DNA of 63,724 nt, the filler included, from Kipferlia bialata (Eukaryota): assembly GCA_003568945.1 (NCBI GenBank). It is 6 parts of 6 records of this genome, joined end to end, with 100 filler letters (N's around TTAATTAATTAA, not from the genome) between each part and the next. Parts side by side here need not be neighbours in the genome. Positions count along the whole stretch, not along the records: positions 1 to 13,521 come from BDIP01000936.1; positions 13,622 to 27,120 come from BDIP01000937.1; positions 27,221 to 40,716 come from BDIP01000938.1; positions 40,817 to 54,308 come from BDIP01000939.1; positions 54,409 to 60,184 come from BDIP01000972.1; positions 60,285 to 63,724 come from BDIP01000979.1. One strand, given 5' to 3'. Shown here piece by piece: positions 61-63,039 of this stretch (position 1 is its first letter; each line of letters opens with the position of its first letter). The translations under genes and the position numbers were made by a program. The notes beneath the pieces were generated by a model. The model ran no database searches and was not told where the DNA came from. It saw only the letters and a program-made list of their open reading frames with translations.

Positions 61-885
61 GCGTTCTCAATGGGCATCAGGCCTGGGGGTGAGGTGTACT
101 GGTATATGGATCATCATATTCATCCACAACATACCCATATACATACTGCACTGTACCTGTGACTATTCACTATGAAATAGTATATATATGAATATTGATA
201 TACCTGTGTCCTGACTGGCTGCCTGGGACAGAAGGCCAAAAGCACCGCCTGGGGTAGGGGGTCATATATGTATACATATGCATATATATACATATATAGT
301 AGTAGAGAGTGCTGGAGGAGAGAGAGAGAGAGGGAGATATAGTACAATGCAGAGGAGACCAGAGGTACCACATGGAGTGAGAGATATAATACAAAGAGAC
401 AGATTATGAGATTGTAAATCCAACATAAACGGCGGATTAGAAGTCTGTAGCAGTATTGCTTGATTACATACCCTTGCCCTCGGCAGCTGCCCTGCTCCTC
501 TCTCTCTCTCTCTCCCTCATTCAAAACATGTACATACATACTATATATACATATACATATATATATACATATATATATAGACTTACCCTTGCCCTCTGCC
601 GCTGCCCTGCTCCTCTCTGTCACGTTCTGGAGGACACCAGCTGGGTGTTAGATACACAAGCACATATATATAGAGAGAGAAATGGATAGTGACACACTAG
701 ATGTTCAAATACAATAATTCAAAGTATAATTATAATATATTCAGTACTATATCCGTCTATACCTCTGGGTGGAAAGAGTCCTGATGGCACCTCTCCCGCA
801 GATGCTCCCTCTCTCTCTCCCTCCTCCCCTGTCTCTCCGGCATCGGATGCCAGGACATTGAAGGGGGTGCTCTCCTATAGGGTAA

Positions 886-939
<54 letters not shown>

Positions 940-2519
940 AAGATCTCATCAAATACACATACTCTACCTGGTTCTCCTGGGGTGTCTCATACACCCAGCA
1001 TATATATATTTATATATATGTGTGTGTGTGTATATATAGTATATTGTATATAATGGAATGTAATCATGTATATTCTCTACCTGGTTCTCCTGGGGTGTCT
1101 CATAGACAGTGGAGAGGGGGAACCTCTCTCCCTCCACAGTGGGGGTATCACTGGTGGCGGTCTTGGCTGAAAGTGAGACACTATATACTATATGTATATA
1201 TAGGGAGAGAGAGAGTATACAAGTGGCGGTCTTGGCTGGCTAATCAGAAACATGTATACACTATACATGCAAACGTGGTAGGTAAGATATAGCACTACAT
1301 AGGTATCTCCATATTTGTATACAAATATAAACACCAACTCCTGGGGTGTCACTGGGTACAGTCATGGCTCATAGTGATGGGGTTTGACACTATGAATATA
1401 TAGAGTACTGTATAGTGTTACATAAGGTCTACACATACCTGGGTACTTTACTGGGTATGGCGTCACACTAAGAGGGAAGGCAGTGGATAGATGGGACACT
1501 GACTGGGAGAGAGAGAGAGAGAGAGCGCTGTCCTCCGTGTCACTCTCGTCAGTATCCACATCACTCCACTCGCCCTCTCCCTCTCCCTCTCCCTCCCCCT
1601 CCCCCTCTCTCTGCCTCCATCTGGACACCCTGTCTGCCTCGACCTCCTCGTCACTGTCCTGGGGTTATATAATATATAATAATATACACTATAAATACAT
1701 ATACTAAATCGTCACTCTCCTATGGTTATATACACTATGCACTACATAGTAATCTACACTATATATATATATGTATACATATATACTATATATATATATA
1801 CTCTGTCTGCCTCGACCTCCTCGTCACTGTCCTGACGGGTGAGATAGTGCACATAATATACATACAGTAAAAGCCACCATGTAGAGTCGTCACTGTCCTG
1901 GGGGGTTACCCTTCTAACCGTCATTGCATCTCTATAAGGATATATACCGCAATACCTCTGTCTCCTCGTCTGATGTCTGCCCCTTGTCTCTCTCTCTCTC
2001 TATATATATATCTATATATATATATAAGTACTATCACTTCCCTGTCTTACCCTAGCTCCACCCATGTCTCTGACCCCCCGAGGAAGGCTCTCTCTCACAC
2101 ACTTACTCTCCTTATACATATATATACCCTACCTCTGTCTCCTCGTCTGATGTCTGCCCTTTCTCCCTCTCCCTGTCACTGTTCATCAGTCCATAGGAGT
2201 AGGACCGGTGGCCGGTCTCACTCTCAGACAGACAGAGCCTACTAATCAGAAGGAGTTAGTGTTACACTGATAGTACAGGTATATATAGAGTATGTACAGT
2301 ATGACTAGGACCGATGGCCTGTCTCACTCTCGGAGAGACATAGTCTAGGGAAAGTAGTGTATATATACAAATATCTATATATGTACAAATACATATATAG
2401 AGAGAGAGAGAAATAGAAGACTAGAGTATATATAGGGCCAGAGAGAGAGAGGAGTCAATCTCAGACAGACATAGTGTAGGGTATGTAGTGTGTTTATACA
2501 AATATGTAGTATAGATATG

Positions 2520-2552
<33 letters not shown>

Positions 2553-2858
2553 TATGCCCTGTGGCCTGGTCTCACTCTCACACAGATGGAAGAATAATAG
2601 TATGCACACTATAAAAATTTAGAAATAGATGAAAGCTGTTGTCCTTGAAAGAATTAGTACTCATAGGAACTCTTCCCCAGAATCATAGCCATATCTACCG
2701 AATCCAACACCACTCCTACCTCTCTCCCCCAGTCTCCCTGCCACTGCCACTCATGTCTGTCTCTCTCTCTCCCTCTACACCCTTTCTCCCTCTGTGTGTT
2801 GATGGGTGGAGGATGGGCTGGTACTGGGGCTGGGTGATCTAGACATTAGAAGGTATGC

Positions 2859-2899
<41 letters not shown>

Positions 2900-3787
2900 T
2901 GCAGGATAGGCTGGTACTTGGGCTGGGTGATCTAGCGGTTAGAAGGTATGTATTTACATATATATAATGATGTATAAGGTATCAATAAGCATATATTTAC
3001 ATATATAACACATATATGATGGGCTGGTATTGGGGCTGGGTGATCTAGATGTTAGGACGGAGTGTTATACATTCACACACGTAACTGTGTAAATAAGAGA
3101 TTCTCAGTAAAAGATACCCATAGAGACCTCCCAGGGTAGGCAGTGTGACGAAGAGGTACTGCCACATACCATCTACATACAAATGAAAATGTATAATAAC
3201 ACATACGTGTATATACATAATAATACATACGTGTATTCCAGTATAACATCTAACACTTAGTGTGTATGTCCATACCTGGTTAAGCAGTGTGGCGCATAGG
3301 TACTGCCACAGACCAGCGAGGGACCGGTTGAGGACATCGACGTCCTGTCGTGAGGGGATATTCACATATATAGGAATCTGTATAGAGAGAGATATATCCG
3401 CGAGGGACCGGTTGAGGACAGGACATCGACGTCCTAGGGTGAGTATGCACATGCGTCAATATGAGTATGTACAAGAGGGTATGCAGAACAGTACACACAC
3501 GCACACAGTGAAAGAGAGCTTAGATAATGAACGGCTGAGGACATCGACATCCAATGGTAAGGGGCCAGAGAGAGAGAGAGGGAGAGAGAGGGAAAGAGGA
3601 TATATGTATGTATCCCTATACAAACCTGGCTAGTGGGGTTGGATAGGGTATCCCCTGTCTGTGTCCTCTCTCTCTCTCTCTCTCTCTCTCTACATGTAGA
3701 TATATACATAGATACGTACCTGGCTAGTGGGGTTTGACAGCGTGTCCCCAGTCTGTGTCCTCTCAATGAACTCTCTCTCTCTCTATC

Positions 3788-3819
<32 letters not shown>

Positions 3820-6800
3820 GATATGTACCTGGCTAGTGGGGTTACTGAGTGTGTCCCCAGTCTGGGTTCTCTCGATGAACTCGAGGAAGTCTCTGGCGGC
3901 ACTAAGAAGGACCTATAATTAGAATACATGGAGAAAGAGAGAGATATCCATGAACTGAGAGAGGGGGAGAGAGAGATATCCATGAACTCTAGGAAGTCAC
4001 GGGCGGCACTAAGAAGGACCTACAGTAACGGTATACTAATGTACATATCAATATACAGGGGGTGCGAAAGAGAGAGAAACTGAGAGAGAACATCAATCTC
4101 TAGCGGCACTAAGGTGGAAGTGTTTGTATACAATTTGTCATTTTGATATAGATCTACTTCATATCACCACATACCTCGTCAGGATCCACCCCTCCCTCCT
4201 CCCTCTCCCCAGGCCACTGCTGGGGCAGGGGGATCTTCTTGGTGCGGCGCCTGGATGTTGAGTACGTGTGAGTGTTTCGCATATAATAGCAATTGTACAA
4301 CTGCAATGATTATACAGTTGTAGGCACATATGATGTCTGGTCATTTCCATACCTCTGCATAACTCTCCACCACTGGGGACCCTTCTCCCCACCCTTCCCC
4401 TTCCCCTTGCGCCCTCTCCCTCTCCTACCCTTCCCCCTCTGGAATCTCTCTCTCTCCCTGTCCCGGTCTCTCATGCCATACAGCCTCACACCCTGAAGGT
4501 AAAAAGGGTGTAGGAGGAGAGAGTATGTGTATTTGTGAAAAAGGGTGCAAGCGGAGAGAGTATGTGTGTTTGTGTAAAGAGGGGGCAGAGAGAGAGAGAG
4601 AGAGAGAGAGATACCTCAGGTGGACTGGTACTGGCCCTCCTCAGTACAAATATACATGTATATACTATAAGTATGGTCTTATCACATGCAAAATACATGT
4701 GATTTAGTATAGTATGTATGAATTATGTATAATATATGTACCTCAGGTGGGCTGCTGGTACTGGCCCTCCTGAATACATATATATACAAATATATACTAT
4801 GAATATACTATTAGTATTTTCAGACATAACACTATATACTGTACATATATGTAATGAATATAGCACATATATGTAATGAATATAATTCTATAATAATCAT
4901 ATACCTCAGGTGGACTACTGGTACTGGCCCTCCTCAGTGACCATCCAACATCCTCCTCTCCCTCTCCCTCTCCCTCTCTATCCCATAGAGATGAGGATGT
5001 GTGGATGCCACGACCGGCGGTAGTCTCTCTCTCTCTCTCCCTCTCTGCCCCCTTAGGGCCGGGCCACTTGAGACGCTGGGGATGAATACACTACTAAAAG
5101 CAATAGCATTTTTACTCATAGTTTATACTCTATACTCATATATGTCCACTTCAGACGCTGGGGATAAGTGTACACAATTATGTACAATACAAGACTTACA
5201 TTATATATGCTATACATACCTGGGGCGATATAGACAGAGGTGAGCGTGTGAGTGGCGACAGGGCATGGCTGAAGTGGCCCATGGAATATATATGTATATA
5301 CATATATAATCTATATAGAATATGCAAGGGAAGTATATCACATGGTATATGTATGTGTGTATTTGTATATACCTGGGGTGATATGGAGAGTGGGGATCTG
5401 GTCAGAGGTGACAGTGCATGGCTGAAGTGGCCCATGGAGTAGTCCCCATCCCCATCCATCTCTCCCTCTATGCGCATGGTGGGGAGGGGTGCCCTTCTCT
5501 AGGGGTGAGCACAGTAACAATATGTATATACTATATATATATATGTATATGTATATGTGTATATATGTATATATATTGCGCATGGTAGGGAGGGGGTGCC
5601 TTCTCTGGATATAAGAGAGTACAGAGATGCTATTGTATAAGTCCAGCTGACCAATTATTGCTCTCTATGTACTATATGTATATATATGTATATATATGTG
5701 GATGCGCATGGTGGGAAGGGGGTGCCTTCCCTAGATGTGAGTGTGTTGAAACACCATATACATACTATAAATATATATGTATGTATATATTGGTGTACAT
5801 ATATATATATATATTATACTTGTTAGTATACACATGGCAGGCAGTGCAGGTCTATTCTAGGGGTGAGCACAGTAACCACTATCCATAATAGTGCATATAT
5901 GTACTCTATAGATGCCTCACTCTCTCTCCACATAGTGTATATATATACGTTAAGAAATTCATATATATACTCTCGTCAATACACACCCATATGGGTATTG
6001 GCCTATATGTTATGTGTATACATATATCCTTCAATACAAGCGTACCTGCATCGGTGGGCTCTCTCTCTCTCTCTCATGCCCCTGCCCTTCATACATGCAT
6101 ATACACGAATAAGTACATACACTTCTAGACACTCACATGTAAATAGTTAGTACCTGCAGTACTATTATAAGCGTTACTACACATCCTACCTGCATCGGTG
6201 GGCTCTCCCCCATCCCCCTGCCCTTCATGCCCTTGACAACGCCTGGGGGGTTAGATTGTGTATGTGGCCAGAATTCATGGTATATGTGGTATAAAGTAGA
6301 GTATATAGAAACGCATATATACTATATCCTTGCTCTGCATGCCCTTGACAACGCCTGGAGGGTTAGAGAGATATAGTAGAGGAATATATAGTGTATAGTA
6401 TATAGTAGACCATATATATAGTATATAGTAGATCATATATATATGTAGTTTAGTAGGGATATATATACAATGAATCAAGAAATCCTGCCCTTCATGCCCT
6501 TGACAACGCAGGGTTAGGCAGACATAGAATTTATGTATGTGGACAGGGAGTAAAGCAAACGGCTGGAGGTAGAATTGCATTGAGCCCGTCAAGTATCCTG
6601 TATGACTACGCCTGAGTGCATATATATAGAGAGAGTTATAGAGTACACCCAGCCTAGAACGACCCTATGGACAGCATGGAGTCATACCATATGTATATAT
6701 ACAAGTACATAGTATGCTTATGATACTTATACATACTTCCATAAACATGTATCCGTATATATATATATGTACATACCCTTGAATGGCCCTATGGACAGCA

Positions 6801-8972
6801 TCGAGTCGATGGCCTTCTGCCAGGCAGAGGAGGCATCTGAGGATTAGACACAAAAGAGTATATATATATATAGAGTATATATAGAGTATATATATATATA
6901 TATAGGGAGAGGAAGTGAGAGTGAGAGAGACAGAGATACAGGGTTCTGCCAGGCAGAGGAGGCGTCTGGGGGTTAGACACATATACACACGCACATCTAT
7001 ACACAAATTGCGATTACATGTGAAAGGTATATGAGTCAATATTATTTAGGAGATACATGTATGTGTGCAGACAGAGAGATATCAGACGGGGTATCTAGGC
7101 ACGAGAAGTAACTCACACATATCCTCTATAGAGAGAGACCCCATGTATATACACAGGGGGAGGCTCAACCACTCACCCTCGACCTCTGGCTCTGCGGGTC
7201 TATCTCTCTCCCTGTCTCTCTCTCTCTCCCTGATCACGATGGTGTCACTGGGATGAGTATATATATATATATATACATAGCACATACTATACAGATAGTA
7301 TATACCACAGCCCTCTCTCTCCCCCTGATCACAATGGTGTCGCTGGAATAAGAATATATAATAGTAGTATATTCTCATGTGTCGCTGGGATGCGGCTGTT
7401 ACACTATAAACTATGTATGCTCTATATGCATATGCATAACACACACTCACACTCACCCCTTTGCCTTTAATAAAGTAATTAGTCAGTATAAGGACCTGTA
7501 TACTAAGATATGTATACAATACATCTATATATAGTATACTCACCCCTTTGCCTTCCTGGGGTTCTTGGCCAGGTGGGCCTGGAAGCGCTTGAACCTAGGG
7601 GTTAAGAGAACTATACATATATAATCAAATGTGTGTATAGCAGTAGAATAGAATAGATTAGATATATATGTGTGCCAATGTAAATAGGTGGGCCTGGAAG
7701 CGCTTGAACCTAGGGTGTTAGTGTGCACGTAAATTTGTATTCAAATATACATTCATATGTGTGTGTATGTGTGAATGCAAAGGCAATAGGCCTTGAATCT
7801 CTTAAACCTAAATGTCAATGAAGATGAAGTGTGTCTTCAGATACACGCATAGAGAGAGACACAAATCCGGGCCTATAAACATCACGACCCTACATAGATA
7901 CGTAATCTCATGCACACAATTACACATACCTCTGGAGCGATGCCAGCTTGAGGTTGGACACAGAGCCACCGACCTGGAGTGAGTGACACTTACATACGCA
8001 AATACACACATATATATACACACATATGTATGTGTGTATATTAATATATGTATGTGTAAGGCTTGAGGTTGGAGTCACCCACCTGGAGTGGAGTACATAT
8101 CTACAAGAGTATACATCTGGATCTTGTGGCATCAGTGCAAATATATCAAGCCAGTGCCAGAGTTCCCGGTATACAGGGATATATGTTCATAGATAGAGTT
8201 ATAGTTACCACTATGGAGTTGTATGTATCCTGCGTATGTATCCCAGTACCAGAGATCCAGGCAGTGTCTCTGTCTATACCTCTCGTCAACATATTTACAA
8301 TAATTGAAATACATAAAGTGTATTGATATAATGCGAGAGTGGCAGGTATTATTATGCGTATTAAAACAAAAACCTCGACAACGTGTACTACACACTATAT
8401 TCAAATACACACACCTGGTTCAGCATTCTGACGGATATGCTAGCCACCACCATCTGATACACCACAAAGGCATCTGGCCCCTTCTTAGACCCTTGGGACT
8501 CTGCAACTGTAGCAGTCATGGCATTCCTGGTATTAAATATATATACAATAACATATTTATATATATATACCTATATATGTGTGGAGTATATATTGGTATT
8601 CATTAGTTGCTTGACTGTCAGCCACAGTGGCAGTCATGGCATTCCTAATGATAAGACCATGTGTATGCATCCACAAACACACATGAGTGCATAAGAATAT
8701 GACAGAATGTGTATACTGTATACTACAGCTACATATATACACACCTCAGAGCGTTGAATGCTGCCACCTGCTCTGGGTTGGTCTGGTCGGACAGGTGCTC
8801 TGAAGGGTTAGAGATGTATATATATCCATATACTTATAGAGTTATGTAAATATACAATAACAAGTAGTAGGAGAGAAAGAGATATACTGCTCTGGGTCGG
8901 TCTGGTCGGACAGGTGCTCTGAAGGATAAGGGGATAGTCATGAAGATATAGTTAAATATATATAGTTACTGG

Positions 8973-9006
<34 letters not shown>

Positions 9007-11311
9007 CACTGCTCTGGGTTGGTCTGGTCGGACAGGTGCTCTGGGAGGTTAGGTAACAAACACAAGTATAGATGTCTGTATACACTCACATATATATATA
9101 TAATAGTATCAGAGAGAGAGAGACATATGTTTACTGATATGGGTTGGTCTGGTCAGACAGGTGCTCTGGGGGTTATGTTCAGTATGAGTATATGAACACA
9201 GATATTCCATTATATACTGAGGTGTAGAACATCTACTCATACACATACCTAGTCTCAGGCTGGGAGGCCGTCTCTCTATATATATAATGTATACATATGC
9301 TCTATTCACATATACACATTCATATCGCATACTATACTATACACATACCCAGTCTGAGGCTGGGTGGCCGTATATACACAGGTATATATACAGGTATATA
9401 TATATATGTATATATGGATGGTGCCCCTAGACTAATCCATTAAAGTATAAATATATACTTCTATGCACACCTATTCTCAGGCTGGGAGGCCGTCTCTTCC
9501 GGCCCTTCCTAGATCTCTTGGCCTTGGCACGGCTGGATATGAGTGTAATCACTTGATACATACGTATATACAATAATACATAGTAGCAAATGTATATAAT
9601 GCATGTGTGTACTTCCTAGATCTCTTGGCCTTGGCACGGCTGGATGTAAGGGTATATGTATACACATATATACTAGAGTATTCAGTAATTAATGAATGTA
9701 ACGTGTGAATATCTAACGGCTGGAATCAGAACAACAGAACAATAACGAACAAAAACGAACAAAAACGAAGAACAAGGAACAACACAGAACATGGTTGGAC
9801 AAGGAAAGGCTGCGGCAAGAGGATCCACAATATATACACAATAATACTGGATACAATACTGACGTATGAGGTTAGTAATTATGAATATGAACAGTATAAT
9901 GTATTTGCACACACACCTAGACCCGTAGTCAAAGCTATGCCACCAGCCCTCTATATATGTATGTATATATACTTATATATATTAATGTATACACACATCT
10001 GTATGTACCTATATATTCATACATATGTAAATGTATACAATTAGGTATACCTAGACCCATAGTCAAAGCTGAGCCTCCTCCCCAAGGGCTGTCTACCACC
10101 CCTCTCTCTCTCCCTCTCTCCACCTCTCTCTAGGGTGGAAGGAGAGTCAGGGTCACGCTTCTGGAACCTATTGCATTAGAAACATGGATAAGACAGATAC
10201 AATATATGAATATATGTCATACAATCAGTATCTCTTCGGAGAGTCAGGGTCACGCTTCTGGAACCTGATATAGGTAAAAGGGAGTAGTATCAATATATAT
10301 AAGTAACACAATACAGTCTATCCAATACCTTAGTGTCCACCCCCTCCTAACCCTGTCTCTCTCTCTCCACATATCTACCTCTCCATCTATATTCATACTA
10401 ATATAATGATATACACAAACACGATAGAGTTGCAGTATAGCACATGAGTATACCTGGGCGTCCACCCCCTCCTGACCCTGTCTCTCTCTCTCTCCAACTG
10501 TCTCCTCCTCTTCTTCTGATGGTTAGGACATACCCATATGCAAACAGTGCCAAATGTTAACAGAAAACATGTGATACACTCCGCCTATATCGTTACCTTC
10601 TGCTTGGGTGTCAGTTCATCATATAACCAATAATCCAACCGATGACTCTCTCTCTCTCTCTCCTTCTATATATATATACATATATATATCATGCATTCAG
10701 TATATATTTATATATATATATATACCTTCTGCTTGGGTGTCAGCTCATCGTCAGTGTGCACTAGCCTGGAGTTTAGAAGGGGTATACTATCACTATTGCA
10801 AAAAATGGATTTTATAGACCTCCCAATGGAAAGGTATTGTGGATTAGAAATACTGATATATTGATTGATTAGCTAGGGGATGTGAGTGCATCCATGGTAT
10901 ACAGTCAAGAGAGAGATTCCGATCAATTGACTGCAGTCAATCAATCAATAAATCAATCAATTGATTACCTGGGTGATGTGAGTGCATCCATCGGAAGGTC
11001 CATCTCGTTGGTGTCTCTCTCCCTCTCGCTCTCCCGCTGGCTCCTGGGGGGTGAGTACAGACATGTATACATACTATACATACATCTACATACTATATAT
11101 ATACTATATATACTATACTATAGATACTATACATATATACACTATATATATTCTCCCGCTGGCTCCTGGGGGGTGAACACCTCTACACACACACATCTCA
11201 CACCTCTCTACTAAGTATATACCTATATACTATACATGCATCAATCTCTCTCTCTCTCTCAATATATATATATCCTATACATACCTAATCCCTCTCTTGT
11301 GATGTCTGGCC

Positions 11312-11349
<38 letters not shown>

Positions 11350-13150
11350 GTGTGTGTACATGTGCATATTACCTTATGCCCCTCTTGTGATGTCTGGCCC
11401 TCTCCCTGGCTATCTGCATCTCTCTCTCTCTCTNNNNNNNNNNNNNNNNNNNNNNNNNNNNNNNNNNNNNNNNNNNNNNNNNNNNNNNNNNNNNNNNNNN
11501 NNNNNNNNNNNNNNNNNNNNNNNNNNNNNNNNNNNNNNNNNNNNNNNNNNNNNNNNNNNNNNNNNNNNNNNNNNNNNNNNNNNNNNNNNNNNNNNNNNNN
11601 NNNNNNNNNNNNNNNNNNNNNNNNNNNNNNNNNNNNNNNNNNNNNNNNNNNNNNNNNNNNNNNNNNNNNNNNNNNNNNNNNNNNNNNNNNNNNNNNNNNN
11701 NNNNNNNNNNNNNNNNNNNNNNNNNNNNNNNNNNNNNNNNNNNNNNNNNNNNNNNNNNNNNNNNNNNNNNNNNNNNNNNNNNNNNNNNNNNNNNNNNNNN
11801 NNNNNNNNNNNNNNNNNNNNNNNNNNNNNNNNNNNNNNNNNNNNNNNNNNNNNNNNNNNNNNNNNNNNNNNNNNNNNNNNNNNNNNNNNNNNNNNNNNNN
11901 NNNNNNNNNNNNNNNNNNNNNNNNNNNNNNNNNNNNNNNNNNNNNNNNNNNNNNNNNNNNNNNNNNNNNNNNNNNNNNNNNNNNNNNNNNNNNNNNNNNN
12001 NNNNNNNNNNNNNNNNNNNNNNNNNNNNNNNNNNNNNNNNNNNNNNNNNNNNNNNNNNNNNNNNNNNNNNNNNNNNNNNNNNNNNNNNNNNNNNNNNNNN
12101 NNNNNNNNNNNNNNNNNNNNNNNNNNNNNNNNNNNNNNNNNNNNNNNNNNNNNNNNNNNNNNNNNNNNNNNNNNNNNNNNNNNNNNNNNNNNNNNNNNNN
12201 NNNNNNNNNNNNNNNNNNNNNNNNNNNNNNNNNNNNNNNNNNNNNNNNNNNNNNNNNNNNNNNNNNNNNNNNNNNNNNNNNNNNNNNNNNNNNNNNNNNN
12301 NNNNNNNNNNNNNNNNNNNNNNNNNNNNNNNNNNNNNNNNNNNNNNNNNNNNNNNNNNNNNNNNNNNNNNNNNNNNNNNNNNNNNNCTAATACCCCTCTT
12401 GTGATGTCTGGCCCTCTCCCTGGCTATCTGCTTCTCTCTCTTCATCCTGCCCTTGTCCAGCTTCCTAGGGGGTTAGAATGGGTATATACACAATATGTAT
12501 AGTATATATATAATGATATTACTATGTATGATACTATATATGATATCATATATCTATCTATATATATATATATATAGTAGTAGTAATAGTAGTAGTAGTA
12601 TATAGTATATAGTGCATATAGTACATGTGGTATCTCTCTTCATTCTGCCCGTGTCCATTATCTTAGGGTTAGAATACACATACATAGATCGCATTGAGTA
12701 TATATTGTGTATAGTGTAGTGTATACTGGAGTATTCCAGTTTCCTCGGGTAAGAGTGTATATCCATACATTTAGAATGCTAGAATATAGTGATATCGAAT
12801 ACTATATGTCTCTCTTCATCCTACCCTTGTCCAGGTTCCTATAATAATCAATTGATGATAACCAATCAATCAATTGATTACTATACATACACACCTAATG
12901 TGCCTGGCTCTCTTTGCCATCAGCTTGGCCCGTCGCCTCCTCTCTCTCTCTCTCTCCTTCTCCCCCTCTCTCCCTCTCTCCCCTGTGTCGGAAGGGGTGG
13001 CTCTAGGCATATCGAGGGGGAGAGGCCTCCTGGGGGTAAGGAAGAGATGCTCACTCATACATATACATATGTGTTATATGGGTATATATGCCCTGTGTTT
13101 GAGGGGGTGGCTCTAAGCATATCCAGTGGAAGGGGGCGTCTGGAGTGAGA
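60..13150 (-). CDS. Large multi-exon hypothetical low-complexity protein (partial, about 30 short exons)
   Basis: GC-rich blocks bounded on the minus strand by CTNAC..YAG acceptors and GT donors splice into sensible peptides (RNAMTATVAESQGSKKGPDALVVYQMVVASISVRMLNQ; VLLSAARDFLEFIERTQTGDTLSNPTSQ; FKRFQAHLAKNPRKAKG). No family recognised; it could be more than one gene. Confidence 0.55.
11434..12386. other. Scaffold gap (N run)
   Basis: Plain N run; smaller gaps near 50866-50967 and 62533-62565. Confidence 0.98.
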
Positions 13151-13383: not shown

Positions 13384-13417
<34 letters not shown>

Positions 13418-23338: not shown

Positions 23339-23986
23339 CTAGCCAAAGCTAAACCTGGGCCAACCATTGTCTTCAGCCGTATGTCTAGGTGCGTTCGCTC
23401 CTGTCCCAAACCCGAACCCAGGCTGAGTAGTAGGATTCGGCGGAGTAGGGTTTCCAAAGGCAGCCAGCCCCACAGCACGCCCGTGACGGCCCCCAAGTAT
23501 CCTTGTTAGAGGGACACTAGCCCGCTGTCTAGCAGAGTGCTCTTCGAGAAGTGCAGTGCGCTGCCTAAAGGCCTCGGGATCATCCCAATCCTCTACCCTG
23601 GGTGTCACTGACTGCTCACTAGAATACATACTTAACATATATCATTGGTCACTGGGGGTGTACTACTCCGCTACTCACCTTGCGTATCCCATGGCACTGT
23701 TGGGGTACACGAGGTCTGGGTGTATGGCAGCGTCGTGGGTCTTGTTGTGTCTGTGCATCGTCACCCTTGTGTCATCGGTACTGGATTCTATACTCAGATC
23801 CAAGTGCCCACGCAAGGTGCCAGGCTGAGAATGAGTCGAGGCATTCTTAATTTTTTTATATATATAGTATGGATATATATATGGATAGACAAGACACCTC
23901 ACTGTAGGAGAGTGTACATCATATGGAAGAATAATCGGTGTTATTACATTACCCACAGGGTAACCAGTCAACGCTTCACCAGCCAT
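23339..23986 (-). CDS. Hypothetical protein with FG-rich C-terminus
   Basis: GC-rich exon-like blocks with splice signals; last exon VEDWDDPEAFRQR...AFGNPTPPNPTTQPGFGFGTG...RFSFG*. Confidence 0.35.
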
Positions 23987-24205
23987 GTACCTTCAGTGGG
24001 AACAACCATGTGGGGTTTAGGCGGTGGGCAACATCTCCACTGATCTGAGGTGAGTAACTAGCTCACATGCATAATGAACAATCACAATACTTTACAAAAC
24101 ATTCACACCACAGGTTACGAGGGACTGATGATAACGTGTGTGTGACTGGCATTGTACTACTTACCGTATCATACAGGATCATGCTGTCCCTGTTCCATAG
24201 CACTA

Positions 24206-26200
24206 TCAGACGGTCGAAGGCCTGGCGGTAAGTGCATTAATAGTAAGCGGCATGATCGACAGACAACAATAATCACTTGTTGAGTAAAAACAATCCTCGC
24301 ATCCCACCTTAACATGTACCGCACTGTACGATGCCGTCACATGAGCGGGGAATGACACATGGAGGTCTGTCCACCCGTCACTCAGGGTGAAGCTGGGTAA
24401 GAGGGGTATGCAGTATGTGCTACATAAATACAACAGAGAATATTCACTGTATTTCTCAGATATGCTCACCTGAAGGCATGGTAGCGAGCAAACACGTAGA
24501 GCACCCCGTGGACTACTACACATGCACGGTACATGGGGTCCTCATGCTGTGTTAGAAGGGATACTCTAGGAGTCTCTACTGCGATACCGTGAGAAATCAA
24601 TGACAGTGAATGTGTTGCGGATTTATAATAGAATACACGTGGAAGCGCAGTATCGTGAACAATACGCACCATGATACCCCTTGGGCACTGGTGATCTAGG
24701 GTGTCAAAGGTCCCAGTAGCAGGATCATAGAGACGCATGATCTCTCTACCACCCTGGGGTTAGAAGGGACCACTATATACTACACCTCGTGTATTTGCAG
24801 CAGCTCTCACCTGGTCCTCCTCGTCCCGTGCCCCATGCCTCTCGGCACAGTGGCCAGTGGAGCCGAAGACCAGGAACTTGCCGTCTAGACACACCCCCAT
24901 GCCAGCTGGGGTAAGTATGATGTGTATCCTATATAATTTATATAGCATATTGTGATCGATATCAACATGGCAATACTACTATATAATACTACGGAACTTA
25001 CCGTCTAGACATACACCCATGCTAGATGGGGTGAGGGTATATAATAGAGTGATAAATAGAGTAGTATGATCCAATATACTGTGCACATCTTATAGTGAAT
25101 CGATATCTTATAGAGACAGACGCACATGCCAGCTGAGGTGCGGGTATTCTATATGAAACAAAACCAAAATGGAGACAGATACTTTAGCTAGCTAGGGGGT
25201 GGGACTTGGATGTATATCCGGAAATTCACCCCGAAAGTGTAGACAGTGAATCACACACATACACACACACATATATATTAATATACACATATATAAGAAC
25301 TGGACATCGCACCTGTGTCCTTAGGTTCCATGCCGTCTCTGTCGGGATCTGCTGTCCTGTCTGTAGGTCAGTGACGATATAACATAACAATTAATGAATG
25401 TATAATATGATGGTGTAACAACAATAATACCCAATAGACCATATCAGACACACAATACGGGACAACGTACCTTCTGGCCTGACAGTCTTCCACTCAAGAG
25501 TGTCCAGAGGTAGTATGTTGAGCTCTTCTGAAGAGTTAGACACTGGCTTAAGATCCTAACTACACAGTATATACAGAATACTCTAGATTAGTGAGCTAAG
25601 GCATACAGCCTGTATTACAAGCTGTCTGTAAATAGGTTCACACCGCATCAAAGCATAAGCACCTGTACCAGCCTTGCTGCCAAATGGGACGGTAACTGGG
25701 TCCCCAGATCTGCAGTGAGACACACTGCTGTGACATACACCTTTACACACTATACACTTACGATGCTTAATACCAACCTGAGTCTCTTCCCGTAGAGGTA
25801 CACACAGCCACCGACCCTAGCAATTGCAAGGGGCTGGACTGTCACACAGACACCACGAGGGGCCTCGGGTTACACACTATAAGTATAAATATACACGCAG
25901 TAAAATATGTGTAAACGAGTGAACTACAATATCCAACCTGGAGACGGGATGGGATCTGTCTGGACTCCAGTAGGGATGTGGGCTGCTGCTGGTCTTGGTG
26001 GGAGAACACTGAGGTGAGAGCCGTATATAGTCAGCAAATAGAAAGAATATATGATGGCAATGTTCCTTATGAATCGTGATGTCACATACACCACATACCG
26101 TGTGTCACAAGCTGATTGTCCTGGACGCTGAAGGAGAGTGACTCCCCAGGGCCTCCCTCAACCCATCTCTGGTACGAGGGTGCCTTGGTGGCTAGTGTCA
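24206..26200 (-). CDS. Kelch-repeat-like protein (multi-exon)
   Basis: Exon peptides AIARVGGCVYLYG, LNILPLDTLEWKTV, GVCLDGKFLVFGS, RLYDPATGTFDTL, CVVVHGVLYVFA, FTLSDGWTDL. Confidence 0.6.
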
Positions 26201-26759
26201 GCGGAATACACTAAGTACTCTGGTATTCAGGCAATGAGTATTGTATATATGCGTGTAAAGCACACTGTGTACATAGAGAGGGTATCATACAGTGTATGAT
26301 TCACGCTCTTACACGTATTCATTTGTGTTCAAATATGTATTAGTACATGTGCACATACCCGCATTGCCGTGGCTCTTGATATCGGTGAATAGGGCAGGTT
26401 CTGAGATATGAGGTGTTGGGGCACACTTTGAAAAACTTAGAGGGAAAGAGAGAGGCGAACAGAGAGGAACATACAGACCACAGAAAGAGAGAGAGAGACC
26501 CTACCACTAGCGACAGGCTGTGGAGTGATGGCAGGAGAGCCAAAGAGCGACATTGGATCGGCAGGATGGGCCATAGGTCTCTGAGAAACTGGTGTGAGAG
26601 CTAGAATTACATGTGATAATGTCATATATACGTTTAGACTAAATGTAAATAGGAACGCTGGAAAGGTACTATTAGTACGGCTACAGCTATGTGTTGCATG
26701 TGTGCTAGTAGGCCACTTCAGATGTGGACTGCTAGACTACTAGACTATGTGACATCACA

Positions 26760-34866: not shown

Positions 34867-34897
<31 letters not shown>

Positions 34898-35480
34898 TGC
34901 CCCACTCACAAAGACACAGCCGGCAGGTGGATGCATATATCTATATGTATATAACAGTATTGTATAACAATATACATATCCGATAAGGCTCTGACCAATG
35001 ACACAGCCGGCAGGTGGGTGGATACATAAATACACTATGTACATATATATATTTGTATACCTACATTTATACAATATGTACATTTATACATGTATGCATA
35101 TACATGTCTACATATATTTCTTTCTATTCTCTTACCCCCAGCCCAGTCGACCCTGTCCTCCCCCTCAGTCTCCACCCGTCCTCTGCTCCACCCCTTTGGC
35201 CCACCTCCCACATCTCCCAACGGGTCTGCCAGGCCCACACCCATCACAGTGGTGGGATTCAGCGATGCAGGAGCCGTGGTTATCTTCTGCCCAGTGCACT
35301 CTAGGCACTACACGCTGCTGAACCACCTCCAGACGTCAATGTCCAACCACATCAAGTACGAATACATTAAGTATATTCGATACATTAGTGTTGTATGTAT
35401 CGCTATCTCTTACTAACCCTAGGCTCCAGCAGCATACATCCAATGCAGTCGGTTCCTGGGCTCACCCCTCATGTTGGGAG
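27309..35480 (+). CDS. DDB1/CPSF160/SF3B3-family triple beta-propeller protein, most like DDB1 (partial, about 40 exons)
   Basis: LFIGSSTSTPVVYKL and CLGPVQDAIV...VTVSGHARDGLLAI match the MMS1_N region; GAVVIFCPVHSRHYTLLNHLQTSM...NAVGSWAHPSCW matches the CPSF_A C-terminal region. The final IDGD segment is not seen. Confidence 0.65.
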
Positions 35481-35680: not shown

Positions 35681-38437
35681 CCAGATTGCATTTTTCGGAT
35701 TCCAGTTTGTATGAGCTTAGTGATGATGTTGAACCATATAGGTACACTGTCCTTCCCACCAGAAGACTCTCTCTCTCTCTCTTTCTCTAGAAGCTGTGCC
35801 TTGTCTAACTTCCAGCCAAGTGCATCTCCTCCGAGTCCCATATCTCCTGAGTATATATACATTTCCATAACTCTCTCCATATATTGTAGAAGACACCTGT
35901 TTCCGTTATGTCTGTACTGCATCTTATTCCCAGCCAAGTGCATCTCCTCCGAGTCCCAGGTCGCCCAGCTCTACTCTGCCATCCACCTAGGTGACACAGA
36001 TGGAGCCCTGGAGAGTGTGGCTGGGATACTCAAGACAGTCAAGGCAGAGGAGGTGGGTGATATAGTATTGTGTATACATTAATATGTATACACTGCACTT
36101 GGGATATATCTGGAACTTGAGGTGTTCGAATGCACCTGAGGTGATTTGTATACTTGAAGTGCCGATAACACTACAAGTGTTATTGTATATTTGCACCTGA
36201 GCTGTATATTGAAGTTGAGGTGTTGGATGCACCTGAAGTGATGTATATACATGAAGTGTCGACAACACCTAAAGTTCCGTCGCCACCTGAGGGGTGAACG
36301 GAACTTGAGGTGTTGACTGTACCACATAACTGTTATTGTATTTATGATGGATGTTCTAACCCCCAAGTGCCTAGAAGTGGCTACCAACGTGTTTGCACGG
36401 GACTGCGACCCAACACAAGGTATACTTGTATGCTTCATTATATGTATTGTATGTATGTTTATGTATTCCTCGCTGCTGGATGAGACGTCGATGTAGTATA
36501 AGTGTAGTAGGCCATTGTGTCTCACCCACAGCATTTGTCTCTGAGGTTCTGGAGAGTCTTGACTGTGAGCCCACACTCCTCACCAGTGCCCAGCAGGTAT
36601 GTATGTGTTATACACATACACATTTTGTATATTGGAATATATATTCCTTTTCCTCAAGTGAATTTGAGTTTGTATATTAATCATATATTGTTGACTCGTT
36701 TGACAATCTCTACCCCTCAGGTTAACCAGTGGTGCTCTGATGCCACACACGGACATATTACAGAGATACTCCAGAGTCTACCCAAGGATGTATTCTCAGT
36801 CCTCATCTCTGGTATGTAGATAGTGGCACAAATAGTAATCAGTGTCACTACGTATTCCTAACCCTTAGCCGTGTACTTCGAGGCAGAGTGGGAAGTCCCA
36901 TTTTCCAGGTCTTACACCGGCAGAGGCTTGTTCACACAGTTCAATGGAAAGGTATGTGTAATAGAGGTTATTGTGCAGTGTCTCTACTTCTGTTGGTTCT
37001 GTTCCCAAGAGTCAGTACACATGTTGGTTGATGATTAGATAGAGTATATTAGTAGGGTTCAGATGTCTTTTTTCACCCTAGGCCCGCACCATATACATGA
37101 TGCATAAAGGGCACACACAGATGACCTACAAGCACAGTGACGGGATGCAGCTGGTCTCTCTCCCATACCGCAACTCCGACGTCAGAGCTGTCATTGCACT
37201 CCCAGACCAGAAGGTAGAGACTACATGTAGATATATCTATTATACCTATCATTAATTGGTGTATATTTATTATTGTTTATCTGTAGTCAGCAGGGATGTG
37301 TGGATTTGTCATAGACCCAATCCCTCTACGATACCACTAATATCTAGGGCCGCAGTGCTTTTGCAAAGGCAGGCCGCATCCTGGTAAGACCCGGTTACAC
37401 GTCAGAGGGCACCCGGACAGCTGAGGTGAGTGACGGGCCTCTTACATACACAAGAGTGTGTCGTTGGTTCATGCTCTATTCATGCTCTATTCATGCTCCT
37501 TGCTTATACAGGTCACCTTCGCTCTGCCTCGATTCTCTATGGAGAGTGAGCATGATCTACTCGACATGCTGAAGGTAAGGACACATACACTAACGCAACT
37601 GTGACTGCCTTTTGCTAGTGTTTTGTTTCATAACTCATTATAAGTCTCATCATGATCTAGCAGTATATCGCATTGAAGCTATTGACCCAGAGACATAGTG
37701 AGATTGAGAAAGTATTCAGTTTTCGCTTGCCATGCATCCACCTGTAACCGTAGGAGATGGGTGTCCCCACGGATCTTCTTGACTGCTCCACCACACTCAG
37801 GTGCCGTCTCAACACGATGAAGGTGTCTGGGGTGACACAGAAGGCCACTCTCACAGGTGGGTTGTATTGGAGGGTTGCAGGAATTTGTTTAGAGTGTATA
37901 CTGTGTATCTCCAATGAATATATATATCATGAACATCGTATCTGGATCATGGGTTGTGGGACACCTGTATCTATTGTTCTACACTGACCTGCAGTCACTG
38001 AGAAGGGCACTATTGCCTCCGCCGCTACCGCTATACTCCAGATTGGAGGTGGAGGTCCTCCTCCGCCACCTGAGGCCACGGTATGTGTGATGATAATGAA
38101 TACATGTGATATTGGATATCTGTCTGACTCTGAGGTATATTAGAAGATACTGAGATCAATTAGCATATTTGGATATCTATCAGGGAAACTGTACTGACCC
38201 CCAGGTGATCTGCGACCGTCCCTTCTGGTTCATGCTGTATCTGGGTGACACTCTGCTCTTCAAGGTATCTCGCAAATCACGGGAAATATATAACAATTGT
38301 GTAAATTGGCGTGGTGCTATAGTGGTTACAGTGCTAATTCCCACTTATCATCACCCTAGGCAGCCAAGTGCACTGCACCAAAAGGGGTGGAGAAGCAGAT
38401 GGCCGATGCCTATCGTCACATGTATGGCCTTCACTGA
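35681..38437 (+). CDS. Serpin with inhibitory-type hinge (about 13 exons, N-terminus unclear)
   Basis: Spliced motifs AQQVNQWCSDATHGHITEIL, VLISAVYFEAEWEVPF, QLVSLPY, LPRFSMESEHDLLDMLKEMGV, VTEKGTIASAAT and CDRPFWFML..LLF are the serpin signatures. Confidence 0.9.
36113..36315. repeat. Intronic compound repeat: two ~58-bp direct copies plus an 18-bp hairpin
   Basis: GAACTTGAGGTGTTCGAATGCACCTGAGGTGAT.. at 36113 vs GAAGTTGAGGTGTTGGATGCACCTGAAGTGAT.. at 36211; inverted arms 36263-36280 and 36298-36315 (one mismatch). Confidence 0.8.
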
Positions 38438-54408: not shown

Positions 54409-54458
<50 letters not shown>

Positions 54459-55581: not shown

Positions 55582-55582
55582 A

Positions 55583-59092: not shown

Positions 59093-60134
59093 CTAGAATA
59101 TGGCTGCCCACAGCAGCAGCACGATGCACAGACTGATGAGGATGGTCATGATCCACAGGTCTCGCCTCTTGAGGGCAGCCACCTTGCCAATGATGGTGCT
59201 GGGGGTGAGGAAGAGAGAGAGAAAGTGCATGTGTGGCGGTACCTTATACTTGGTATCCTCGAGTACACTCCTGTGACCTTGGACCTGGCACCCCTGATCA
59301 GGTGGCCTGGCAGTCAGACAGTCAAACACATCGGAAAGAGAGAGAGGGGACAGAGAGAAATAGAGATGCTGTGCGAGTACCCTGTGTGTCCAGCTCCTCT
59401 GCTGTGGTGTGTGCAGTCTCAATGAGGTCATCCACAGTGCTAGGGGTCAGAGAACTATACACACTCAATACATACAAATGCGTGATACTATACTCATTGT
59501 CCTTGTCACATACCGTGTAGCATCCACCGTGTTGAGCCTCTCCCTAAGGAGGGCCTCCTCCATACCAGACACAGGGCCAACCTCACTGGGGGTAAGATGG
59601 GGACACACGCACATATACACATATACACACACACAGAGAGAGAGAGAGTACTAGTGACTATACCTGGGTCTCAGCATGGCGTCCAGCTGTCGTCTCTCTT
59701 CCCTGGGGTCAGATGCGAGTCATAGTATCACAACACCTATTGATAGAGTGTCGATAGATACATGAATACCAAGTGCATATGATGACTCTGTCCCCTCACC
59801 TCATGTCCAGTGTCTGTATGGCAGAGGCAATCTCAGCCCTGGGGTGAGATTAGTATTGAGAATAGCACATATACTCCTATGCATCATACTTTCACACATG
59901 ATTAAGAGGATGTCTCAGCCCTAGGGTTATGATAGGGTCAATATATGATGAGTCAGAACGAGTATGTATCGATACCCATGCCTGTGTGATGCGAGTGCCC
60001 TCTGCTCCCAGTCATATAGTATCATATGTAGTATGTATCACAGTATATATTACCAATGATATATGAATATCCTGTACCTGTGTGATGCCAGTGCCCTCTG
60101 CTCCTTATCTACAACCATGGACATCACGGTGTAG
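59093..60134 (-). CDS. GOS1: Golgi Qb-SNARE, GOS1/GS28-like (partial)
   Basis: Spliced EALLRERLNTVDAT..TVDDLIETAHTTAEELDTQGHLIRGARSKVTGVYSRIP..STIIGKVAALKRRDLWIMTILISLCIVLLLWAAIF*: Qb-SNARE motif, KRRD and a C-terminal anchor. Confidence 0.75.
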
Positions 60135-60667
60135 CTGGGGTGGGTGGGGGGGGGGGAGAGAGAGAGAGAGGAAGAGGGAGAGATNNNNNNNNNNNNNNNN
60201 NNNNNNNNNNNNNNNNNNNNNNNNNNNNTTAATTAATTAANNNNNNNNNNNNNNNNNNNNNNNNNNNNNNNNNNNNNNNNNNNNAGGGGAGAGGTTGTGG
60301 GGGGGTGGGGGGGGGGGGGGGGGGGGGGATGATCAGATGGAGAAAGAGAGATTATCGTTGAGCGGAGAGCCAGTATTCCACCCTGGCTGGTGTAAGGATG
60401 AGAAAGAGAGAGGGGGTTGTAAGCGAGGGAGGGAGCGAAGAGAGAGAGAGAGAGGTACATGTGTACCTTTGAGAATCCCTGCACACTCCAGCTGCTCTTG
60501 TACAGACTGAACTTGCTACAGGTCTCTAACCGTGTCATATCTAGGTGACGAAGACTCGGGTATGGTTCAAAGAAAGCGGGTGAGAGGTTAGGCCTCGAAA
60601 GGAGTAACTATGTGACACATTTGCGAAAAAGTGAACAAAATGTGTTGAAATGAATGGCCTGATAAAA

Positions 60668-60757
60668 TGGTGTCTCTTGTGGGAATCGAACCCACACAAC
60701 GGCCAGGAAAAGTCTTCTTAGATTTTTTGGAATATAGCCATTGATCCAATAAGTGAC
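60668..60757 (-). tRNA. Degenerate tRNA(Leu)-like Pol III unit (pseudo-tRNA or tRNA-like ncRNA)
   Basis: Acceptor GTCACTT/AAGAGAC+A followed by CCA and TTTT; A-box-like TGGATCAATGG; perfect T arm GTGGG-TTCGATT-CCCAC; anticodon and variable arms non-canonical. Confidence 0.5.
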
Positions 60758-61207
60758 ACCGAAACTTTTAGCATATTTGGGCCGCCTTAGAGACCATATT
60801 ACTCTAGTATACCCCGCACCCATTTCCACACTGAGTGTGATACTGATCTATTGTCGAGACAGCAATTACAAGTTGCTATCTGCGTGTGTCTCGACCTATA
60901 CTACTGGTGGTCGAGACTATAATATATATATACACAACGTAGACCAAACTCCCCTCCCCAAATAACTTCAAATACACTGGCTAAATGCCACACACAACAC
61001 ATAAAGTAGCGCTACTTGGACCGTTGACCGTCTCTAACCATGCATGGCAAGATACAGTCTAGAAGGGCGCTGGAAGAAGGGGGGGGGGGAAGGGGGGGGG
61101 CGGTCATGTCATATGCACAAGTCCCTATATCTCTACGAGACTGTGCACGCCTCAAGATTCCTTGCAGTACCTGCAGTCCTCGATATACCCTAGATACGCG
61201 AGATAAC

Positions 61208-63039
61208 CTAGTACATCTCGTCCTCGCTGCCGTCGGCCTCGAAGAAGTCCCTGATGAGACCAGCGGCAAAGTCGTAGACGTTGTAGGAGGAGGTCTAGGG
61301 GTAAGAGAGAGGGACATAGAGAGAGAGAGAGAGAAGGAGGAAGAGATCACGACGTTGTAGGAGGAGGTCTGAGGGTAAGTAAGCATAAGTCAGAGAGAGA
61401 GAGAGAGAGAGAGAAAGGAGGACGTTGTAGGAGGAGGTCTGAGGGTAAGCAAGAGCAAGAGAGAGAGAGAGAAAAGAGGAAGAGATCAGTCAATGAGTCA
61501 GCATTGCAGCTAATGCATATTTATATATATATATGTAGGAATATATAAATGCACCAACCTGCTGGAGGTCCTCGATGGTGTCCAGGCCTCCACAGCTCTC
61601 GATCCTGAGGCAGATGGGGTTGGTGTCCTCGCCTGGGGTGAGAGGGGGAAGGCATAGACAGAGACATTTATACACATGGAACACATATGTCATAGTCAAT
61701 GATTGAGAGGGGCTATAGAGATAGAGAGATCGTATACGTACCGAGGTCCTCTCCGTACTGGAGGCATGACCTGAGGAACTGGAGACCCACGACAATGCAC
61801 TTGCGGTCCCTAGAGTGAGATAGAATAATATCCAATATGAACTCACAAGTATACGTATATATATACCTGTTGGTGTCTGATGTCTCGAGCATGGAGCATG
61901 TGCCCTCGACGGCACCGGCATCAATGGCATACCTGGGGGTGAGATAATACAAAGAGAGAGAGAGAGAGAGGAGAGAATTATGGGCCTGAGTGAGATATGG
62001 GGTAAGAGAGTAATGGTGGAAGGGCGAGAGAGATAGAGATAGAAAGACAAAGGTTGACTCACTTGAGCATGGCGTACTGGTCGTCGTGTGCAATGAGGTT
62101 GCCAAAGGACCAGACGGCCTCTCTCCTGGGGGTAAGTTGCATCAATGATACAGTATACATTATAGTGTACATTAAAGAGTAGAGATAACACACCTGATGT
62201 CTGCGAATGGGGACCTGAGGCAGTTGACCACCATGGGGATGAGGCCTGGGGTCAGTATACATACAGAGTACATACACAAACATATATATTATATATTATC
62301 ATATATATTATATACTCACCAGAAGTGCACAGGAGCTCCCTCTGTGCCTTGGTTCCAGCTGCAATGTTGGAGATGACCCAACAGCACTCCTTCCTGATGT
62401 ACCTGGGAGTTAGGGAACATCCAACCCATATTAATAGTATATATAGTAGGAAATATCCATGTATATACCTGAGCTCGCTGTTGAGCAGGATGAGCAGCCT
62501 CTCGATGATGCACACAGGATACTCACACAACANNNNNNNNNNNNNNNNNNNNNNNNNNNNNNNNNCACACAGGATACTCACACAACACTACAATATGGTA
62601 TATATATATATATATATATACATATATATATACCTGAGCTCGCTGTTGAGCAGGATGAGCAGCCTCTCGATGATGCCTGCGTTGAGTGTCAGCTCACAGA
62701 TGTCATCGGGGCCAGCGACACAGTTGCCAAGGGTTCTGGGTATGAGTATATCATATATGCATATACACTGTAAACAATATATACTCTATGTATAGGAATA
62801 TGAATACGATTACATAAACATGGGTATATATAGACAAAGATGCAGTTGCCATGGGTCCTGGGTATGAGTATATCATATGTATATACATTCATACAATATA
62901 CTATAAACAATACATATTCATTTGGTATATCCATGTGTACATACCTGAGGCATGGGGTGGAGATCTGGCTGTCGGAGTGCACGACAAGCTCCATGAGCCT
63001 GGAGGGTGAGACGAGAAGGATCTGTAAAGTCTTTCATGG

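What the first reader, a model, noticed from the sequence alone, without database searches (positions are those of the whole stretch)
465..62870. Introns stacked with synonymously recoded spare copies of the adjacent exon end and its splice site
Seen: dozens of introns in at least seven unrelated genes contain 1-4 extra copies of 15-70 nt of the neighbouring exon. In the cases examined the polarity is consistent: [branch point+AG+exon start] copies lie upstream of the full exon and [exon end+GT] copies lie downstream. Each copy usually has its own consensus-matching but different splice signal and an unrelated intron sequence. The exonic parts differ almost only at silent positions, including AGT/TCA/TCC Ser and AGA/CGC Arg swaps. 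Copies generally lack the second splice site, so they are not ordinary cassette exons. Neutral decay of a tandem duplicate would give mostly non-silent changes and similar introns, the opposite of what is seen. Inference: the copies have been under protein-coding selection. Candidate mechanisms: (a) one-sided recombination capturing junctions from highly diverged alleles or homeologs; (b) expanding and contracting junction arrays in which loop-out rotates different copies into the coding position, i.e. intron replacement; (c) pointer-like DNA rearrangement or non-canonical splicing. I know of no description of this architecture.
Basis: partly seen in the sequence, partly recalled or inferred. 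Interest (0 to 1): 0.93.

Follow-up and report, generated by a model that had tools for sequence, protein, structure and literature searches.

The report
Stacked retired splice junctions in Kipferlia
In the free-living protist Kipferlia bialata, over a third of the introns examined hold stacked spare copies of the neighbouring exon edge and its splice signal, which differ from the working exon mostly at silent positions and were skipped where RNA was checked; they are likely former working junctions from very different alleles, left behind by imprecise DNA repair, so one genome would record its species' hidden diversity.

Summary
The feature is real. The window is Kipferlia bialata DNA. In seven hand-built gene models, 56 of 146 introns hold 97 junction-anchored exon-edge copies of 11-69 nt; control pairs gave none at score 12 or more. 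dN/dS to the exon is 0.13; copy-versus-copy pN/pS is 0.13-0.20; a simulated neutral spare gives 0.41-1.02. So the copies diverged as working coding sequence, and neither decay nor rotation within one lineage fits. Intron bodies beside them are mostly unalignable. One DNA contig spans 28,740-34,828 unchanged, and an RNA contig skips all three copies it tests. The architecture has a precedent: amphioxus 'mirages'. This scan noted similar repeats in animal DNA. New here are the density, unalignable intron-sized spacers and coding-type divergence among copies. Best reading (0.5): gene conversion from a diverged allele, ended by microhomology joining, installs a new junction and retires the old one. 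No diverged donor allele was seen, so that step is inferred. Genes A and D, the densest, have no read check.

The parts
587..13029 (-). Gene A, unknown low-complexity protein, 26 modelled exons; 46 copies in 22 of 25 introns
   Evidence: stop-free frame with outermost splice sites; copies
472..503 (-). Donor-side copy of the end of exon 640-587, two silent changes, own GT (outside the 97)
3626..3773 (-). Two donor-side copies of exon 3912-3829 (45 and 54 nt; 9 and 8 silent, 0 replacement; Ser AGT/TCC/TCA)
3132..3171 (-). Decayed donor-side copy: GT lost, 1 silent and 6 replacement changes
5220..5288 (-). 69-nt donor-side copy of exon 5498-5373, 13 silent, 0 replacement
8887..9165 (-). Three 32-nt acceptor-side copies of exon 8799-8745 ending at one point, each with a different branch point-AG
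23679..26588 (-). Gene B, 15 modelled exons; one counted copy at 24,993-25,025
27309..35480 (+). Gene C, 42 modelled exons; 6 copies in 5 of 41 introns; RNA contig follows the model at the 15 joints shown
28184..28222 (+). Acceptor-side copy of exon 28,289-28,426, 2 silent changes
28705..28737 (+). Donor-side copy of exon 28,523-28,634, 3 replacement changes; the RNA contig carries the full exon's letters
   Evidence: loose end at 28,824
29574..29586 (+). Short acceptor-side copy; skipped in RNA (joint skips 157 nt)
30122..30186 (+). 65-nt donor-side copy of exon 29,978-30,088, 14 silent, 0 replacement, consensus donor; skipped in RNA (joint 30,088>30,330)
34893..35013 (+). Two donor-side copies of exon 34,774-34,832
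35816..35840 (+). Acceptor-side copy ahead of the first modelled serpin exon (35,934); outside the 97
   Evidence: serpin match below Pfam cut-off
43080..53901 (-). Gene D, WD40-repeat protein, 38 modelled exons; 39 copies in 24 of 37 introns
46248..46514 (-). Three donor-side copies of exon 46,670-46,575 (7 silent, 1 replacement in all)
47009..47037 (-). 29-nt acceptor-side copy, 6 silent, 0 replacement
50125..50340 (-). Three acceptor-side copies of exon 50,038-49,957
53902..54243 (-). Four acceptor-side copies of exon 53,901-53,766, period about 81 nt, five different branch point-AG signals, breakpoints at a (CT)n tract; outside the 97
   Evidence: 37 of 37 pairwise codon differences in the first 13 codons are silent
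59094..60134 (-). Gene E, SNARE-like by my reading (no Pfam hit for the one exon scanned); one copy at 59,982-60,008
61208..63607 (-). Gene F, importin-alpha-like by my reading (weak Arm hit); copies at 61,351-61,368, 61,421-61,438, 62,469-62,511, 62,843-62,857
33442..33481 (-). Exon end plus donor site of another expressed gene, antisense inside a gene C intron
   Evidence: a second DNA contig, 3 other letters, and an RNA contig match it
48940..48961 (-). False copy: unmerged scaffold overlap at an NN gap; excluded

Best explanation
The copies are skipped spare exon edges with their splice signals that diverged under coding selection, and they are likely retired working junctions: a break near an exon edge would be repaired by short gene conversion from a strongly diverged allele, run into the donor's intron, and be closed by microhomology joining, which would install the donor's junction next to the exon and push the old one into the intron. 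Shown: the copies, their coding-type divergence, mosaic tracts, intron-sized spacers, RNA use of the outer sites at three arrays. Inferred: the diverged donors (about 0.28 substitutions per four-fold site, many versions coexisting), the repair route, later neutral decay, and exon-definition splicing as the reason the inner sites are ignored.
For: dN/dS 0.13 overall, 0.09 in the 80 intact copies; simulation with both lineages selected gives 0.03-0.10, neutral spare 0.41-1.02. Copy-versus-copy pN/pS 0.13-0.20. Copy splice sites score like real ones but differ in sequence. Divergence per copy fits a spread of ages better than one time (lnL -85.8 vs -93.9). Silent differences are clustered, as in conversion mosaics (134 runs vs 161+/-6.6 in 31 copies). 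Copies nearer the exon are longer (20 vs 6 pairs) and more often the intact one (7 vs 1). Spacer side of the breakpoint is richer in dinucleotide repeats (3.7 vs 2.5, p=0.019). K. bialata lacks Ku70 and has Pol theta and five Rad52 entries (PMC8516963 supplement). End-joining termination of HR and tracts under 100 bp are described in PMC5104497. RNA skips the copies. A foreign gene's junction in one intron shows that junction fragments do get captured.
Against: No diverged allele was seen: the 6.1-kb stretch is one contig with no other letters (contigs drop variants), and no second Kipferlia lineage was found. Intron bodies are far more diverged than silent sites predict (10 of 89 align; substitution-only simulation predicts 89%, or 47% at six times the rate), even beside exon copies identical over 22-43 nt. 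The near-total lack of spacers under 50 nt (3 of 89 vs 62% expected) is not explained by the repair route, and the array at 53,902-54,243 has spacers near 30 nt. The age gradient is weak: nearer copies are not significantly more similar (17 vs 10, p=0.25) and their silent/replacement ratio does not differ (p=0.59). No repeat enrichment on the exon side of breakpoints (p=0.63). Some arrays share breakpoints and related spacers, i.e. plain tandem duplication also contributes.
Confidence: 0.5

Rival explanations
1. Ordinary local tandem duplication of a junction (a mirage), followed by unequal crossover and gene conversion between the copy and the exon of diverged alleles, in a hyper-polymorphic species; no one-sided capture step is needed.
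For: Gives the same low dN/dS and mosaics. 10 of 89 flanks are still related and several arrays share a breakpoint. Mirages with 81-100% identical units and haplotype length differences are published.
Against: Fresh duplicates with near-identical spacer and intron should be common; none of the top-scoring flanks is near-identical over 35 nt apart from the excluded gap artefact. It needs the same unseen diverged alleles.
Confidence: 0.27
2. The copies are still used: DNA loop-out between copy and exon in some cells or stages (pointer-like), or a non-standard splicing route, puts them into mRNA, so both versions stay under selection at once.
For: Explains low dN/dS without extreme diversity. Copy splice sites are as strong as real ones and spacers are intron-sized. 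Up to 14 silent and 0 replacement changes in 65 nt.
Against: RNA contig uses the outer sites and the full exon's letters at three of three arrays; the DNA contig shows no skip joint. Only 1 of 44 donor-side copies has an acceptor before it; donors after acceptor-side copies are at background (28 of 53 vs 59%). Use of an inner site would be in frame and stop-free in 3 of 73 cases. 17 copies have decayed. Contigs hide minority forms, and genes A and D were not checked.
Confidence: 0.12
3. Tandem duplication in one lineage with neutral decay of the spare, or rotation of units through the coding position by loop-out, with microsatellite slippage scrambling the introns.
For: Explains polarity and fast intron turnover; fits the 17 decayed copies (dN/dS 0.34-0.45).
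Against: Predicts dN/dS 0.41-1.02 (120 replicates); observed 0.13; 0.5 rejected at p<1e-13; copy-versus-copy differences are silent too.
Confidence: 0.04
4. Assembly or library artefact stacking two haplotypes.
For: Short-read, fragmented assembly; one false copy at an NN gap; run X1 may be the source of this DNA, so it is not independent.
Against: 0.99 of sampled 31-letter words of 27,300-35,400 (six copies) are in X1's separately assembled contigs; one 6,179-nt contig spans two arrays with no difference; up to five versions of one junction; decayed copies; no N at most breakpoints.
Confidence: 0.04

Closest known systems
Amphioxus 'mirages' (Adh3, globins BflGb6/BflGb9, troponin C, PGBD5); PMC3087553 and PMC3902484, passages read
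   Same: Tandem duplicates spanning an exon-intron boundary, at 5' or 3' ends, many keeping AG/GT, without disturbing normal splicing.
   Different: Mirages are minisatellite-like units 81-100% identical with concerted evolution, reported at a few loci. Here 56 of 146 introns carry them, the intron parts are mostly unalignable and the exon parts show coding-type divergence, also among copies. The passages read report no silent-site bias.
Non-canonical (end-joining) termination of gene conversion / one-sided invasion; PMC5104497, abstract and Introduction read
   Same: One end copies a donor, the other is joined by microhomology; Pol theta involved in Drosophila; short tracts under 100 bp.
   Different: Described as a reporter or cancer outcome with sister templates; here it is inferred as a recurrent heritable process with diverged donors.
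Internal gene duplication and intron gain by tandem duplication (Rogers; Gao and Lynch 2009, seen only as cited in PMC3087553; not held)
   Same: Intragenic duplicates that include splice sites.
   Different: No new intron or exon results at the arrays tested; the intron position stays and its ends appear to be replaced.
Duplicated cassette or mutually exclusive exons (recalled)
   Same: Exon-like copies under purifying selection inside introns.
   Different: Copies are partial, lack the second splice site, and are skipped in the RNA contig.

Membership tests
Mirage repeats | Tandem duplicates spanning an exon-intron boundary, 5' or 3' | tested here: met
   97 junction-anchored copies, 44 donor-side, 53 acceptor-side
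Mirage repeats | Normal splicing is undisturbed | tested here: met
   3 of 3 arrays in gene C skipped in one RNA contig; other genes untested
Mirage repeats | Minisatellite-like units similar over their whole length (81-100%), intron part included | tested here: not met
   10 of 89 flanks align, median z 0.27; identity at background beyond about 22 nt
Mirage repeats | Concerted evolution among inner units | tested here: inconclusive
   copies differ from each other about as much as from the exon; a few arrays share breakpoints and variants
Mirage repeats | Copy-number differences between haplotypes or cells | tested here: inconclusive
   no skip joint in DNA contigs over 6.1 kb, two arrays; contigs drop variants
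Cassette or mutually exclusive duplicated exons | Both splice sites present | tested here: not met
   1 of 44 donor-side copies has an acceptor; 28 of 53 acceptor-side copies have a GT, background 59%
Cassette or mutually exclusive duplicated exons | Copy appears in mRNA | tested here: not met
   three arrays, one contig
Pointer-guided DNA elimination (ciliate-like) | A contracted DNA form exists | tested here: inconclusive
   none; raw reads not available
Recursive or nested splicing | Stepwise removal through the inner sites (lariat intermediates) | not testable with these tools
   only contigs were served
End-joining-terminated gene conversion | Machinery: HR plus Pol theta, no classical NHEJ needed | tested here: met
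   published table rows: PolQ and Rad52 present, Ku70 absent in K. bialata; read, not re-derived
End-joining-terminated gene conversion | Microhomology at the new junction | tested here: inconclusive
   donor unknown; spacer side enriched in dinucleotide repeats (p=0.019), exon side not
End-joining-terminated gene conversion | A diverged donor template exists | not testable with these tools
   no second strain or allele found

The most novel reading that the evidence does not exclude
Kipferlia runs an active, genome-wide junction-swapping process: exon edges with fresh intron ends are repeatedly exchanged at the DNA level, within the cell population or from conspecific DNA, so that intron sequence is rewritten far faster than silent sites while every stored junction stays fit to code and splice.
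Probability: 0.2. Interest if true: 0.92.

Novelty: new variant of a known kind. Interest (0 to 1): 0.72.

Why it matters
If right, one short-read genome stores several past working alleles at many junctions, implying silent diversity near 0.28 in a free-living fornicate and cryptic recombination between diverged lineages. It would show intron ends being replaced in place, a route of intron turnover tied to a repair set without classical end joining. It also gives thousands of natural decoy pairs: consensus-strength inner splice sites at normal intron spacing are ignored, which makes exon definition versus intron definition directly testable in an organism with 90-nt introns and a reduced spliceosome (87 of 174 proteins). 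Gene models for this genome may be affected.

Tried and rejected
No whole genome was held, so nothing is genome-wide. No listed run is on record as RNA; X2 is a guess, though its contig is spliced. Reads were laid only on 28,740-34,830. Metagenome scan with the ADHE C-terminus gave 80 loci at 45-57% identity, no second Kipferlia lineage. No introner-like family among the 146 introns: only low-complexity matches. No long-range or inverted copies of window exons within the window. A RIP-like spectrum does not explain the silent bias: 140 of 251 changes are transversions, and CpA/TpG-type changes are 20 vs 10. No fixed unit length: copy and spacer lengths are uncorrelated (rho -0.14, p=0.18). Splice-site strength does not separate used from unused sites (p=0.57 and 0.98). 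Two diverging homologs alone were rejected by argument: five intact versions at one junction need more than two donors at once. Canestro 2002 and Gao and Lynch 2009 could not be read. Literature searches listed no paper on such copies in Kipferlia; the genome paper has no 'duplicat' or 'tandem'.
Full report
Source. An exon at 57,563-58,795 is 100% identical to the aldehyde-alcohol dehydrogenase of Kipferlia bialata; the next hit is Dysnectes at 74%. The window is six scaffolds joined by N gaps with linkers. The published genome of this species was made from Illumina TruSeq reads with SPAdes, has 124,912 introns and looks diploid by k-mers (PMC5874029, parts 1-3 of 6 read); I did not establish that the window comes from that assembly. 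No whole genome was held, so all counts are for this window.

Gene models. I built seven models by hand (153 exons, 146 introns). Using the outermost splice sites, each has a stop-free frame up to its end. Other genes in the window were not modelled. Plain introns have a median of 91 nt; exons are 55-60% GC, plain introns 35-46%. For gene C an RNA-like contig confirms the 15 joints displayed (17 more not shown), and the share of words that run holds (0.32) equals the share predicted from the model (0.323). Models A, B, D, E, F and G rest on open frames and splice motifs only.

The observation. Aligning each intron with its two neighbouring exons gave 96 hits at score 12 or more in 292 pairs and none in 1,460 control pairs. 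Of 104 hits at 10.5 or more, 100 touch the junction. After dropping three, 97 copies remain in 56 introns: 22 of 25 in gene A, 1 of 14 in B, 5 of 41 in C, 0 of 11 in G, 24 of 37 in D, 1 of 6 in E, 3 of 12 in F. At least six more lie outside modelled introns. 80 keep their splice dinucleotide, and their sites score like the used ones. The polarity is as described, but it follows from any duplication across a junction.

Not an artefact where tested. Run X1, which may be the source of this DNA, holds 0.99 of the sampled words of 27,300-35,400, and one 6,179-nt contig covers 28,740-34,828 with no difference, through two arrays. One false copy at an NN gap was removed.

Coding-type divergence. pS is 0.255 and pN 0.039, dN/dS 0.13 (0.16 with transition bias); intact copies 0.09, decayed copies 0.34. 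A spare that decays neutrally while the exon is selected should give about 0.5 or more; simulation through the same trimming gave 0.41-1.02 in 120 replicates, and 0.03-0.10 when both lineages were selected. Copies also differ silently from each other (39 vs 17 among intact copies, 48 vs 31 in all). At 53,902-54,243 five versions of one acceptor have five different branch point-AG signals and 37 of 37 pairwise codon differences silent. So each intact copy spent most of its separate history as a working junction. Rotation of units within one lineage cannot give this, since only one unit codes at a time (my argument, backed by the test against 0.5).

Current use. The RNA contig joins 30,088 to 30,330 and 29,477 to 29,635, skipping both copies, with no other letters, and its loose end at 28,824 carries the full exon's letters, not those of the copy. 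This is one contig, three arrays; minority forms would be hidden. Second splice sites are absent or at background, and use of an inner site would be in frame and stop-free in only 3 of 73 cases. Outer sites are not stronger than inner ones; both outer sites are the ones nearest across the exon, which suggests exon definition (inference; the rule that short introns favour intron definition is recalled).

Clues to origin. Four-fold sites differ at 74 of 319 (d about 0.28), with a broad spread of ages fitting better than one time. Silent differences are clustered in tracts. Splice-proximal intron bases are more alike than chance (0.52-0.58 vs 0.34-0.46) and fall to background beyond about 22 nt, so the introns share descent but are deeply diverged. 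Spacers are intron-sized (medians 73 and 77 nt); 3 of 89 are under 50 nt against 62% expected for random breaks. Copies nearer the exon are longer and more often intact, but not significantly more similar. K. bialata lacks Ku70 and has Pol theta and five Rad52 entries; fornicates lack Rad51A and NHEJ (PMC8516963, passages and supplement rows; one supplementary PDF could not be read). One intron holds, antisense, the exon end and donor of another expressed gene.

Mechanism. I favour replacement from diverged donors: a break near an exon edge, short conversion from a diverged allele into its intron, closure by microhomology joining, old junction pushed inward, later decay (0.5). The nearest rival is plain duplication reshuffled by unequal exchange among diverged alleles (0.27); both may act, and both need many coexisting diverged alleles, which I could not see: the laid stretch shows no second allele and no other Kipferlia lineage was found. 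Continued use of the copies keeps 0.12. Unexplained: intron bodies diverge much faster than silent sites (11% align vs 47-89% simulated), the 50-nt spacer floor, and the strong differences between genes.

Known relatives and novelty. They share the layout and the undisturbed splicing, but are near-identical minisatellite units at a few loci. The whole-unit similarity test is not met here, so this works like a mirage without being filed as one. Searches (listings only) and a term search of the genome paper showed no account of it in Kipferlia; the original mirage paper and Gao and Lynch 2009 were not held. PMC6679479 and PMC9933649 were seen as passages, PMC5104497 as abstract and Introduction. 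Verdict: real, a new variant of a known kind, interest 0.72.

Noticed in passing
window 33,442-33,481 (-): An exon end with donor site from another expressed gene sits antisense in a gene C intron; a second DNA contig (3 other letters) and an RNA contig match it.
   Followed up: partly
window 2,046-2,090, 8,113-8,265, 9,720-9,830 (+): Exon-like islands antisense within gene A introns, two with splice-like ends; possibly more foreign captured fragments.
   Followed up: partly
window 33,982-34,059 (+): A GC-AG intron is needed to keep gene C in frame.
   Followed up: partly
all modelled introns: 118 of 146 exons end in AG and 95 of 146 start with G; the branch-point motif lies within about 12 nt of the AG.
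   Followed up: partly
window 55,573-58,798 (+): Aldehyde-alcohol dehydrogenase gene with long exons, strong C-ending codon use by eye and no junction copies in the self-comparison.
   Followed up: no
window 36,053-36,367 (+): Serpin intron with degenerate repeats and an imperfect 53-nt palindrome at 36,263-36,315.
   Followed up: no
window 19,983-20,014 and 41,772-41,792: Near-perfect palindromes of 32 and 21 nt.
   Followed up: no
window 48,940-48,994 and 62,511-62,587: Short duplicated overlaps around N gaps, typical scaffold artefacts.
   Followed up: yes
scaffolds 1 and 4 versus 2 and 3: Copy density differs strongly between genes (22 of 25 introns in A, 0 of 11 in the serpin); cause not found.
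   Followed up: no
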